IMG/VR virus record: IMGVR_UViG_2671180669_000010
From: a virus
Lineage: Duplodnaviria > Heunggongvirae > Uroviricota > Caudoviricetes
Reading direction: 5' to 3' (one strand)
DNA: 5,526 bases
Below, one piece after another: positions 1,157-1,622 of the stretch; positions within the stretch are counted from its first letter, which is position 1, and each line of letters starts with the position of its first letter. The position numbers and the translations under genes are program-made. Below the pieces are notes generated by a model. It was not told the origin of the DNA and did not search any database. It saw only the letters and a program-made list of their open reading frames with translations.

Positions 1157-1186
1157 ATAAACAACAAAGCCGCCCAAAAGGCGGCT
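1157..1186 (-). terminator. Candidate rho-independent terminator downstream of the lipoprotein gene
   Basis: Perfect 7-bp inverted repeat AGCCGCC (1168-1174) / GGCGGCT (1180-1186) with a 5-nt loop. On the minus-strand transcript the stem is followed by UUGUUGUUUAU (plus 1157-1167). It lies about 25 nt after the lipoprotein stop and just upstream of the J RBS. Confidence 0.45.
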
Positions 1187-1210
1187 CATGAGTTACGACA
1201 GGATTAACTA

Positions 1211-1549
1211 TTATTTACATGCATTAACACTATCAGCAAAAATTTTTGGCGTTAATGCTGGTACACGTTCATAAAGAGTAAAACTACTGCCATTTCCTGC
1301 TTTTTTGATATCAAGCACAACATCATATCCCCCCATAGCCTGTGGAACTAAAAGGCTTACCCCATTCTCAATAGGAAGGGATGTTATAGGTGTTCCATTA
1401 CCAGCCCATTGTCTGGATATGCAGCCTGACAATTCATCAATATTTTTTAATGAATTACCTTCCATTACAGGTTTTCCGGATTTTACGTAATCCAAAGATT
1501 TACATCCTGTTAAGGCAATAATCGTGCAGAATAAAATCGTTTTGTTCAT
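1211..1549 (-). CDS. Small predicted lipoprotein of unknown function (about 112 aa), moron-like insert between I and J
   Basis: ORF on the minus strand; I take the ATG at 1549..1547 (MNKTILFCTIIALTGC...) rather than the TTG at 1561 used by the track. N-terminus looks like a type II signal peptide: short polar n-region, hydrophobic core, lipobox-like L-T-G-C with Lys at +2. Two further Cys in the mature part. Coding region is low-GC (about 30-35 % in the two 60-nt blocks I counted) against GC-rich flanking tail genes. I recognise no homolog from memory. Shine-Dalgarno is weak. Confidence 0.55.
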   Translation of the reverse strand: MNKTILFCTIIALTGCKSLDYVKSGKPVMEGNSLKNIDELSGCISRQWAGNGTPITSLPIENGVSLLVPQAMGGYDVVLDIKKAGNGSSFTLYERVPALTPKIFADSVNACK

Positions 1550-1622
1550 ATAGCTAACCAATAGAATAATTATCAGTGTTCGATATAAATATTAAATCAG
1601 TTAGAACATGAGTAAAATAATA

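What the first reader, a model, noticed from the sequence alone, without database searches (positions are those of the whole stretch)
1157..1622. Low-GC lipoprotein cassette inserted between tail genes I and J
In lambda the I-J gap is about 60 bp; here it is about 480 bp. The extra DNA is strongly AT-rich against GC-rich tail genes and holds one small ORF (1211..1549, minus) with a lipoprotein-type signal peptide (MNKTILFCTIIALTGC, Lys at +2), followed by a hairpin terminator. That gene-plus-terminator layout inside a late operon is the classic moron signature. Known prophage morons near tail genes include lipoproteins that block superinfection by masking receptors (Cor, Llp) or alter host surface and virulence traits (Bor, Lom). 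This protein resembles none that I can recall, so it is a candidate novel superinfection-exclusion or lysogenic-conversion factor. The function is inference; the insertion and composition shift are directly visible.
Basis: partly seen in the sequence, partly recalled or inferred. Interest (0 to 1): 0.72.

Follow-up and report, generated by a model that had tools for sequence, protein, structure and literature searches.

The report
Orphan lipoprotein gene in tail operon
A lambda-like E. coli prophage carries an extra, AT-rich gene between tail genes I and J; it encodes a small outer-membrane lipoprotein of an uncharacterised phage family that recurs at different junctions of tail-tip operons, and it most likely blocks entry of rival phages, though this is untested.

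Summary
The I-J gap is 478 bp, against 60 bp in lambda and in 110 related phages. The extra DNA has GC 0.32-0.38 against about 0.58 in the flanks. It holds one 112-codon ORF (1211-1549, minus strand) with a canonical lipobox (LTGC, Lys at +2).

One correction: the "terminator" hairpin is not part of the insert. Lambda and other insert-free phages have the same hairpin in their 60-bp spacer. No consensus promoter was found.

The protein belongs to PHROG 914 (unknown function). It has no Pfam family, no solved relative and no informative name. The family has about 125 clusters at 50% identity, nearly all lipoproteins of about 112 aa with two conserved mature cysteines.

Members sit at I/J (E. 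coli), K/I (Fraca, LMessi, Kluyvera, Klebsiella, P. aeruginosa), T/H (Enterobacter, the HK97 gp15 slot), beside a repressor (Burkholderia), or beside a stand-alone I paralogue (phiAH14a). It is therefore a mobile accessory gene that stays close to lambda-type tail-tip modules.

It is not homologous to Cor, Llp, Lpp021 or Lpp010. One allele rides with at least 4 different J receptor-binding domains, which argues against receptor-matched masking.

Best guess (about 0.45): an outer-membrane-anchored exclusion factor acting on a conserved entry step. The function is inferred, not shown.

The parts
1623..2264 (-). Tail assembly gene I. This is the upstream neighbour; its stop codon TAA is at 1625-1623. 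RefSeq calls the start at about 2198.
   Evidence: Pfam Lambda_tail_I, E 4e-24. RefSeq annotation in the identical E. coli locus. 81% identical to lambda I.
1193..1622 (-). Inserted low-GC DNA, about 430 bp, that is absent from lambda-type phages with an empty I-J junction.
   Evidence: Alignment with three empty sites and with lambda. GC 0.32-0.38. No DNA match in the phage collection. Present in 337 of 5,426 complete E. coli genomes.
1550..1622 (-). 73-nt AT-rich leader between the I stop codon and the ORF start. It has no consensus sigma-70 promoter and only a weak Shine-Dalgarno.
   Evidence: Promoter scan found nothing on this strand. By eye the best candidates are only 8 of 12 matches (TTTACT-16-TAATAT), which is not distinguishable from AT-rich background.
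1211..1549 (-). Lipoprotein ORF of 112 codons plus stop, a member of PHROG 914.
   Evidence: Purifying selection. AlphaFold2 model with pLDDT 83.6 and pTM 0.75.
1502..1549 (-). Signal peptide (codons 1-15, MNKTILFCTIIALTG) and the lipobox Cys16 codon (1504-1502). The +2 residue is Lys.
   Evidence: PS51257-type rule met here and in 130 of 139 full-length family members. The +2 residue is never Asp.
1214..1501 (-). Rest of the mature chain (residues 17-112; the whole mature protein from Cys16 is 97 aa, about 10.3 kDa, pI 7.9). It has invariant KSLD, C43, MGGYDVVLD, LYER and C111 in the enterobacterial subfamily, and an alpha/beta fold with a 5-stranded sheet.
1157..1187 (-). Hairpin (GAGCCGCC-TTT-GGGCGGCTT) plus T-rich tract. 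This is pre-existing I-J spacer structure, not specific to the cassette.
   Evidence: A homologous hairpin is present in lambda and three other insert-free phages, with one compensatory A-T to G-C stem change.
56..1144 (-). 5' part of tail-tip gene J, the downstream neighbour. Its SD GGAG lies just after the hairpin.
   Evidence: Pfam FNIII-A_GpJ, E 2e-42. RefSeq gpJ.

Best explanation
The insert is a horizontally acquired accessory ('moron-type') gene of a lambda-like E. coli prophage.

[quoted passage not shown] This places a compact, probably disulfide-bonded alpha/beta domain of about 10 kDa in the periplasm.

The gene is co-oriented with the tail genes and lacks a recognisable promoter. 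It is therefore transcribed at least as part of the Q-antiterminated late tail operon. Expression in the lysogen is possible but not shown.

Its most likely job is superinfection exclusion: blocking entry of incoming lambda-type siphophages at the periplasmic face of the outer membrane, and sparing progeny from dead-end ejection into lysing cells. The step it blocks is probably not specified by the J receptor-binding domain. One candidate is outer-membrane insertion of the gpI plug helices or formation of the gpH* periplasmic channel. Another is inhibition of a tail-borne wall hydrolase.

Shown here: the insertion, the lipoprotein signal, family membership, the mobility between slots, purifying selection, and the decoupling from the J receptor-binding domain. 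Inferred: localisation, timing of expression, the exclusion function and the step blocked.
For: - **Real, selected, exported protein.**. Two mature cysteines are invariant in a 54-member alignment. Exactly two extra cysteines occur in 124 of 130 members.
- **Accessory and mobile.** Absent from 110 phages with the same flanks.
- **Different slots in different lineages.** I/J in 59-60 E. coli viral contigs, T/H in 6, K/I in at least 4. K/I in Fraca, LMessi, a Klebsiella phage, Kluyvera and P. aeruginosa vB_PaeS-D14P.
- **T/H slot.** Found in Enterobacter. This is the slot of the HK97 gp15 exclusion moron (PMC3594210).
- **Immunity or early regions.** Downstream of a cI-like repressor, followed by a strong terminator, in Burkholderia. 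In the immunity/early-left region next to a stand-alone I paralogue in phiAH14a.
- **Persistent linkage to tail-tip modules.** This holds from Enterobacteriaceae to Pseudomonas and is the pattern of known exclusion genes. Examples are cor and Rtp45 next to tail fibre genes (PMC4936722, PMC12685063), and Lpp021 and Lpp010 next to J, which were experimentally shown to exclude (PMC11893012).
- **Lipoprotein stacking.** Fraca and LMessi stack this gene with a second lipoprotein and cor in one tail region.
- **Precedent for the mode of action.** Llp on FhuA and Rtp45 on LptDE both act from the periplasmic face of the outer membrane (PMC9586334, PMC12685063).
- **A step other than receptor binding.** The 99-100% identical allele accompanies 4 J C-terminal types that are 14-73% identical to each other. 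The same J type occurs in phages without the cassette.
- **Where entry happens.** gpI helices are proposed to enter the outer membrane, and gpH* forms the periplasmic channel (PMC11101478, PMC12617516).
Against: - There are no functional data for any family member.
- There is no homology to any proven exclusion protein.
- No promoter was detected, so prophage-state expression, which classical exclusion needs, is unproven.
- Some distant members lie outside recognisable phage tail contexts, in an integrative element and a replication module.
- Decoupling from the J receptor-binding domain could simply reflect frequent recombination inside J, 3.4 kb away. The four J types might still use one receptor.
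- Several copies are frameshifted or interrupted by an IS element, so the gene is dispensable.
Confidence: 0.45

Rival explanations
1. Receptor mask of the Cor/Llp/Rtp45 type. The lipoprotein binds the periplasmic side of the specific outer-membrane protein that this prophage's J uses, and allosterically prevents adsorption by the same and related phages.
For: - It is encoded next to J, as known masks are encoded next to their receptor-binding protein (PMC4936722, PMC12685063, PMC11893012).
- It has the outer-membrane sorting signal.
- Cor of phage Fraca shares the signal peptide plus about 12 mature N-terminal residues with the family profile (hhalign probability 84%).
Against: - The identical allele occurs with at least 4 J C-terminal types, one of them unrelated at 14% identity.
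- The same J type (99.6%) occurs in VT1-Sakai and the PPompW phages, which lack the cassette.
- Relatives sit at T/H, at K/I or near repressors, far from J.
- The mature domain is about 97 aa, larger than Lpp021 (72 aa precursor), Lpp010 (82 aa precursor) and Rtp45 (about 6 kDa), and is unrelated to them (PMC12685063).
Confidence: 0.15
2. Lysogenic-conversion factor that benefits the host for reasons unrelated to phages, such as serum resistance, adhesion, envelope stress or virulence. Lambda Bor and the Francisella lipoprotein Flpp3 are examples of this kind.
For: - It is an outer-membrane lipoprotein moron, like Bor.
- It is frequent in pathogenic lineages: APEC O78, O104:H4 and the K1 strain CE10.
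- Some distant members lie in non-phage mobile elements.
Against: - There is no Bor/Iss or DUF3568 HMM hit. Identity to Flpp3 is 6-9%.
- A host-fitness gene has no obvious reason to stay inside tail-tip operons from E. coli to Pseudomonas.
- Such a gene would also not be expected to lack a lysogen promoter.
- The cassette also occurs in commensal, canine and environmental strains.
Confidence: 0.15
3. Lytic-cycle helper only. The protein is made late with the tail proteins. It either neutralises receptors or entry sites on lysing cells and debris so that progeny are not wasted, or it assists envelope disruption. It has no role in the lysogen.
For: - It is co-oriented with and embedded in the late operon.
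- The upstream gaps at K/I slots are tiny and carry a strong SD.
- No promoter was found.
- Exclusion factors are thought to prevent non-productive adsorption to infected cells and to post-lysis fragments (PMC12685063).
Against: - The Burkholderia member lies directly after the cI-like repressor, and the phiAH14a member is in the immunity/early-left region. Both point to lysogenic or early expression.
- The molecular activity would be the same as exclusion, so this rival differs mainly in timing.
- The gene lies outside the lysis cassette and is unlike spanins.
Confidence: 0.12
4. Decaying or functionless hitch-hiker DNA whose ORF happens to be open.
For: - Some copies are frameshifted in homopolymer runs.
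- One copy is interrupted by IS3.
- Truncated or frameshifted database entries exist.
Against: - The family HMM match is full-length, and about 125 diverged clusters keep the same length, lipobox and cysteine pair.
- Substitutions are 12 synonymous to 1 non-synonymous.
- The AlphaFold2 model is confident.
- A 112-codon ORF in 36% GC DNA is unlikely by chance.
Confidence: 0.02

Closest known systems
Cor (phi80, N15, HK022, T1) and T5 Llp / Rtp45 superinfection-exclusion lipoproteins
   Same: [quoted passage not shown] They act from the periplasmic side to block entry (PMC9586334, PMC12685063, PMC4936722). Phage Fraca carries cor as well as a member of this family.
   Different: - There is no sequence or fold relationship. 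Llp matches through the signal peptide only (E 1.5) and is absent from the fold hits. Cor aligns for only 31 columns.
- The mature domain is about 97 aa, against about 6 kDa for Rtp45 (PMC12685063).
- The allele does not co-vary with the J receptor-binding domain.
Lpp021 and Lpp010 of the mEpimmI coliphages (PMC11893012)
   Same: These are lipoproteins encoded inside the structural gene cluster of temperate coliphages that have K-I-J tail tips. They were experimentally shown to exclude phages that use OmpA or LamB, including lambda.
   Different: - They are 72 and 82 aa and Cys-rich.
- They are encoded after J on the opposite strand.
- They are not homologous: hhalign aligns only 17-20 signal-peptide columns.
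HK97 gp15, the original 'moron' (PMC3594210)
   Same: It is an accessory gene inserted in a lambdoid tail operon and co-oriented with it. It blocks DNA entry without masking the receptor, and its specificity maps to the tail. The Enterobacter/Citrobacter allele of this family occupies the same junction, between the tail chaperone T and the tape measure H.
   Different: gp15 is a YebO-like inner-membrane protein, not a lipoprotein, and it has its own promoter and terminator. Here no promoter was found and the hairpin is ancestral. Direct sequence comparison was not done.
Lambda Bor / Iss
   Same: It is a prophage-encoded outer-membrane lipoprotein of about 10 kDa that acts as a moron.
   Different: Bor lies near the lysis genes, is expressed in lysogens and confers serum resistance. 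No Bor-family HMM hit was found.
Francisella Flpp3 (DUF3568), the closest solved fold
   Different: Identity is 6-9% and there is no HMM relationship. The fold class is generic (KA1, DUF302 and BamC-N score similarly), and Flpp3's own function is unknown.

Membership tests
Moron (Juhala/Hendrix sense, as summarised in PMC3594210) | Extra DNA relative to closely related phages | tested here: met
   The gap is 478 bp against 60 bp. The insert is absent from 110 phages with homologous flanks and from lambda.
Moron (Juhala/Hendrix sense, as summarised in PMC3594210) | [quoted passage not shown] | tested here: met
   GC is 0.36 against 0.57-0.58 here, and 0.38-0.44 against 0.52-0.55 in other enterobacterial loci.
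Moron (Juhala/Hendrix sense, as summarised in PMC3594210) | Own promoter | tested here: inconclusive
   No sigma-70-like site with at least 9 of 12 matches on the coding strand upstream. The same holds in the Enterobacter and Burkholderia loci. K/I-slot relatives have only about 30 nt upstream. A weak or non-consensus promoter cannot be excluded.
Moron (Juhala/Hendrix sense, as summarised in PMC3594210) | Own terminator | tested here: not met
   The hairpin at 1167-1187 is homologous to the one in the empty I-J spacers of lambda and three other phages. Relatives in other slots are also followed by hairpins, but their origin was not resolved.
Moron (Juhala/Hendrix sense, as summarised in PMC3594210) | Expressed from the repressed prophage | not testable with these tools
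   This needs RNA-seq or 5'-RACE on a lysogen.
Bacterial lipoprotein (PROSITE PS51257-type signal) | A positively charged n-region, an uncharged h-region, and a lipobox [LVI][ASTVI][GAS]C with the Cys at position 15-35 | tested here: met
   MNKTILFCTIIALTG|C has K3, lipobox L-T-G-C and Cys16. 130 of 139 full-length family members also pass.
Bacterial lipoprotein (PROSITE PS51257-type signal) | Outer-membrane sorting (no Asp at +2, the Lol-avoidance rule) | tested here: met
   The +2 residue is Lys here. Asp occurs in 0 of 130 members. This is a rule-based prediction only.
Bacterial lipoprotein (PROSITE PS51257-type signal) | Actual lipidation and cleavage by signal peptidase II | not testable with these tools
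   This needs globomycin or palmitate labelling.
PHROG 914 (phage protein family of unknown function) | Full-length match to the family HMM | tested here: met
   E 7.3e-33, residues 1-112 against profile positions 1-118 of 118.
Cor family | Sequence homology of the mature domain | tested here: not met
   hhalign of the family profile against Fraca Cor aligns 31 columns only (signal peptide plus about 12 residues), probability 84%.
Cor family | Inactivation of FhuA and exclusion of FhuA-dependent phages | not testable with these tools
   This needs an experiment.
T5 Llp | Sequence or fold similarity to Llp (PDB 8a60) | tested here: not met
mEpimmI Lpp021 / Lpp010 | Sequence homology | tested here: not met
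   Only 17-20 signal-peptide columns align.
HK97 gp15 / YebO | Small inner-membrane protein homologous to YebO | not tested
   The gp15 sequence was not fetched. The descriptions differ: gp15 is an inner-membrane protein and this is a lipoprotein (PMC3594210). Only the genomic slot is shared, by the Enterobacter allele.
Lambda Bor / Iss | Match to the Bor-family HMM | tested here: not met
   No Pfam family at E up to 1 for the window protein. No Bor-family or DUF3568 hit at E up to 0.01 in any of 54 family members.
DUF3568 (Flpp3) | HMM match, or a strong and specific fold match | tested here: not met

The most novel reading that the evidence does not exclude
PHROG 914 proteins could be a new class of exclusion lipoprotein that does not mask a receptor. 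Instead they would jam the conserved lambda-type tail-tip entry machinery from the inner face of the outer membrane. Possible targets are insertion of the gpI plug helices, exit of the gpH* channel, or a tail-borne hydrolase such as gpK. This would give receptor-independent protection against many siphophages with M-L-K-I-J tips. It would explain three findings: the family stays next to gene I from E. coli to Pseudomonas; it pairs with a stand-alone I paralogue in the phiAH14a early region; and it is indifferent to the J receptor-binding domain.
Probability: 0.15. Interest if true: 0.75.

Novelty: new member of a known kind. Interest (0 to 1): 0.5.

Why it matters
Lipoprotein genes that sit beside tail genes are a recognised kind of phage accessory gene. 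The few that have been tested (Cor, Llp, Rtp45, Lpp021, Lpp010) have each revealed how a phage shuts a specific door in the outer membrane.

This family is sequence-unrelated to those tested proteins. It is present in about 6% of complete E. coli genomes, including O104:H4, APEC and K1 strains, and extends to Klebsiella, Enterobacter, Citrobacter, Pseudomonas and Burkholderia. It has never been named or tested.

If it excludes phages, it affects the host range of therapeutic and temperate siphophages. If it acts independently of the receptor-binding domain, it would be a handle on the poorly understood outer-membrane and periplasmic penetration step of lambda-type tails. If it turns out to be a host-fitness factor instead, its prevalence in pathogens would still make it worth a phenotype screen.

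Tried and rejected
**Searches with no useful result**
- Pfam, NCBIfam and PADLOC scans of the protein found nothing, apart from a VirB7 signal-peptide match at E 0.08.
- A Pfam scan of 54 diverse members found nothing relevant.
- PDB sequence searches with two profiles found only signal-peptide matches.
- The AFDB50 library was unavailable.
- The phage DNA search with the cassette found nothing.
- Locus finding with the wide alignment failed because it has no conserved stretch.
- The genome-contig scan returned a single locus.
- Literature searches for the accession and for the PHROG id found nothing.
- An O104:H4 reverse-vaccinology paper does not concern this protein.
- The Rfam scan of the insert gave only a sub-threshold GcvB match (19.6 against 42 bits), taken as chance.
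- Two long proteins hit the profile repeatedly. P0091 is an Ig_7-repeat protein and P0115 has no Pfam family, so both were treated as spurious.

**Ideas rejected**
- The hairpin as the cassette's terminator.
- A tail structural or assembly role. The protein is exported, absent from most phages with this tail type, and found in varying slots.
- A spanin-like lysis role. The gene is outside the lysis cassette and the protein is unlike Rz1.
- The antisense ORFs at 1305-1490 and 1390-1521, and the plus-strand promoter-like site at 1214-1243. One site was found against 1.7 expected by chance.

- Measuring the Cys43-Cys111 distance, because the model coordinates are not exposed.
- Complex prediction with gpI, gpH, gpK or outer-membrane proteins.
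Full report
**What the window is.** The 5.5-kb window is the distal tail operon of a lambda-like prophage, all on the minus strand. The genes are H (tape measure, 3' part), M, L, K (JAB + NlpC/P60), I, an insert, and the 5' third of J. Positions 900-1900 are 100% identical to a prophage at the trp/ompW locus of E. 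coli O78:H4 APEC E12049. There the ORF is annotated as hypothetical protein WP_001332187.1 and is followed by J, lom and tail-fibre genes.

**Checking the observation.**
- J starts at 1144 and I ends at 1623, so the gap is 478 bp.
- Lambda has exactly 60 bp, as do PhiR49_1_star, Lambda_2B8 and Ayreon.
- All 110 sequenced phages that match the I/J flanks match in two pieces that skip about 415 bp. The cassette has no DNA match at all in 50,697 phage records.
- GC falls to 0.32-0.38 against about 0.58 in the flanks.
- The only sizeable ORF in the gap is 1211-1549 (minus), 112 aa. It starts MNKTILFCTIIALTG|CKSLD, which passes a PROSITE-type lipobox rule with Lys at +2.

**One correction: the hairpin.** The hairpin plus T-tract at 1187-1157 is real. 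It is homologous to the hairpin in the 60-bp spacer of lambda and other insert-free phages, with one compensatory A-T to G-C change in the stem. The Ayreon annotation even labels it a terminator. The inserted DNA is thus about 1193-1622, and the cassette did not demonstrably bring its own terminator.

**No promoter found.** No sigma-70-type promoter reaches the scanner's threshold on the coding strand in the 73-nt AT-rich leader.

**Is it a real gene?** Yes.
- It matches PHROG 914 ('unknown function') end to end (E 7e-33).
- Between E. coli alleles, substitutions in the ORF are 6 synonymous to 0 non-synonymous (CE10) and 6 to 1 (AR_0089, a conservative I to V change).
- An exhaustive profile search of 1.8 billion representatives finds 125 clusters at E below 1e-3, nearly all 105-125 aa.
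- 130 of 139 full-length members have a lipobox, none has Asp at +2, and 124 of 130 have exactly two further cysteines.
- The lipobox Cys and both mature cysteines are invariant in a 54-member alignment, while P27, K35, W48 and G63 are nearly invariant.
- AlphaFold2 gives a confident model (pLDDT 83.6, pTM 0.75) with two long helices packed on a 5-stranded sheet.

**Is it known?** No.
- No Pfam, NCBIfam or PADLOC family matches the protein. Pfam also found nothing relevant in 54 relatives.
- No solved structure is related by sequence.
- The only strong match among predicted viral structures is an uncharacterised Pseudomonas phage phiAH14a protein, which is itself a family member.
- Public sources name the protein only 'hypothetical protein', 'Lipoprotein' or 'Phage protein', although the exact sequence is seen on at least 1,000 contigs.
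- Full-text searches for the accession and for the PHROG id return nothing.

**Distribution and mobility.** The cassette is present in 337 of 5,426 complete E. coli genomes at 95-100% identity, in up to three copies, with one copy on a plasmid.

Among 70 IMG/VR loci, the slot follows the allele:
- The E. coli allele is always between I and J (59-60 loci).
- An allele at about 52% identity is always between T and H (6 loci).
- Alleles at 48-59% identity lie between K and I (at least 4 loci).

The T/H slot is confirmed in Enterobacter prophages. It is the slot of the archetypal moron, HK97 gene 15 (PMC3594210). The K/I slot is seen in five other places:
- phage Fraca
- phage LMessi
- Klebsiella phage ST846-OXA48phi9.1
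- a Kluyvera genome
- P. aeruginosa phage vB_PaeS-D14P, where the gene is unannotated

More distant members lie in other contexts:
- One is about 400 bp downstream of a cI-like repressor on the same strand, followed by an 11-bp-stem terminator, in a Burkholderia gladioli prophage.
- One is in the immunity/early-left region of phiAH14a, immediately upstream of a stand-alone second copy of tail assembly protein I.
- One is in a phage-like replication module.
- One is in an integrative element.

The gene is therefore accessory and mobile, not a core tail component. Even so, the gene keeps a striking long-range association with lambda-type tail-tip modules, and with gene I in particular: five of the nine lineage contexts examined place it next to an I-family gene.

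**Comparison with proven exclusion lipoproteins.** A 2025 study showed that lipoproteins encoded within the structural cluster of mEpimmI coliphages exclude OmpA- or LamB-dependent phages, including lambda (PMC11893012). I fetched those genes, Lpp021 (72 aa) and Lpp010 (82 aa). They lie after J on the opposite strand and align to this family only through the signal peptide. T5 Llp likewise matches only in the signal peptide. Cor of Fraca, and the different 140-aa lipoprotein p83 of phiAH14a, share the signal peptide plus a short mature N-terminal motif (C-x4-5-[DE]-[LIV]-[RK]-x3-P) with the family, but nothing beyond it. The family therefore works like that kind of protein at best and is not a member of any of those families.

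**Does it track the receptor-binding protein?** Known masks do. This gene does not.
- Among 39 complete J genes next to the 99-100% identical E. coli allele, the C-terminal 250 aa fall into four types (27, 7, 3 and 2 loci). These types are 14-73% identical to each other.
- None is lambda-like over the last 150 aa.
- The commonest J type is found at 99.6% identity in VT1-Sakai and the PPompW phages, none of which has the cassette.

This disfavours receptor-matched masking. However, recombination within the 3.4-kb J gene could also erode such linkage.

**Most likely mechanism.**
- What the sequence shows: a prolipoprotein with an outer-membrane sorting signal and a conserved cysteine pair, which implies an oxidising compartment. 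It is embedded in, and co-oriented with, the late tail operon.
- Inference: it sits on the inner leaflet of the outer membrane and is made at least late in infection.
- Context from the literature: recent structures place the critical post-binding events of lambda entry exactly there. The gpI plug opens, and its two hydrophobic helices are proposed to insert into the outer membrane. gpH* then forms the periplasmic channel (PMC11101478, PMC12617516).
- Other supporting points: the linkage to I, the independence from the J receptor-binding domain, the precedent of HK97 gp15 (entry block without receptor masking, specificity mapping to the tail), and the stacking of several lipoprotein genes in one tail region. 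Fraca and LMessi carry this gene, a second lipoprotein directly upstream of it, and Fraca also carries cor.

Taken together, I consider superinfection exclusion at a conserved entry step the best explanation (about 0.45). Within that, the exact step is open. A T4 Sp-like inhibition of a tail hydrolase such as gpK is an alternative, because K lies directly upstream in K/I-slot alleles.

**Rival explanations.** These are receptor masking (0.15), a Bor- or Flpp3-like host-fitness role (0.15), a purely lytic-phase role (0.12) and junk DNA (0.02).

**Caveats.**
- No family member has any experimental data.
- Expression in the lysogen is unproven.
- Some copies are frameshifted in homopolymer runs or interrupted by IS3.
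- Localisation and the disulfide are predictions.

**Verdict.** The finding is real. The moron reading is right in substance (foreign, accessory, mobile) but wrong on the terminator and unproven on the promoter. The protein belongs to an uncharacterised but widespread phage lipoprotein family. It is a new member of a known kind of element. There is a modest chance (about 0.15) that it acts by a new, receptor-independent exclusion mechanism.

Noticed in passing
window 1157-1187 (minus); L098 (lambda) 755-805: The I-J spacer hairpin plus T-tract is conserved from lambda to this prophage, with a compensatory A-T to G-C stem change. Similar stable hairpins followed by '..GGAG..ATG' precede I or H in Fraca, Kluyvera and Enterobacter. 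This looks like a conserved structured element inside the late tail operon (attenuator, terminator or mRNA-stability element) whose role is unclear, since late transcripts are antiterminated.
   Followed up: partly
L096 (phiAH14a) 4956-5942: Pseudomonas phage phiAH14a carries a family member (the annotation splits it into p34 and p33; the real ORF is 115 aa). It lies in the immunity/early-left region and is immediately followed by p32, a stand-alone second copy of tail assembly protein I, far from the tail operon. The published satellite AH14b also pairs an I-like gene with a lipoprotein (PMC4936722). This looks like a lipoprotein plus I-paralogue module of unknown purpose.
   Followed up: partly
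L002 11579-11812 (Fraca cor); L097 2239-2661 (phiAH14a p83); window 1460-1504: Three otherwise unrelated tail-region lipoproteins (this family, Cor, and phiAH14a p83) share a short motif right after the lipidated Cys: C-x4-5-[DE]-[LIV]-[RK]-x3-P. It could be a common tether or docking segment, or it could be convergence.
   Followed up: partly
L003 (LMessi) 5647-5994; L002 (Fraca) 5725-5994: The ORF between K and the family member in LMessi and Fraca is a second, unrelated lipoprotein (MRKFLSILACSLIIVGC...). Fraca thus carries three lipoprotein genes in its tail region, counting cor.
   Followed up: partly
L025 (E. coli GN05476) 4773-6218; L083 and L084: Some copies of the cassette are inactivated. 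One has an IS3 insertion. Others have single-base indels in homopolymer runs (G6, A6, A5T5). These could be decay, sequencing error or slippage-prone tracts.
   Followed up: partly
L099 (vB_PaeS-D14P) 4956-5297: An intact 113-aa family member between K and I is not annotated in the deposited record of this P. aeruginosa phage.
   Followed up: yes
L022 (E. coli CE10) whole locus against L001, L023 and L024: The identical lipoprotein and near-identical I and J N-terminus are joined to different head modules (a ClpP-protease/capsid fusion against a lambda-type capsid), different tape-measure lengths and different J C-termini. This shows recombination breakpoints on both sides of the I-lipoprotein-J(N-terminus) block.
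   Followed up: partly
L001 11614-12282: In the source prophage, a class I SAM-dependent methyltransferase gene lies on the opposite strand among the tail-fibre and assembly genes. A lom homologue follows J. These are further accessory genes in the same tail region.
   Followed up: no
window 2162-2947 (minus): The K protein combines a JAB/MPN domain and an NlpC/P60 peptidase domain. In K/I-slot relatives the lipoprotein gene follows K directly, in an order reminiscent of an effector-immunity pair.
   Followed up: no
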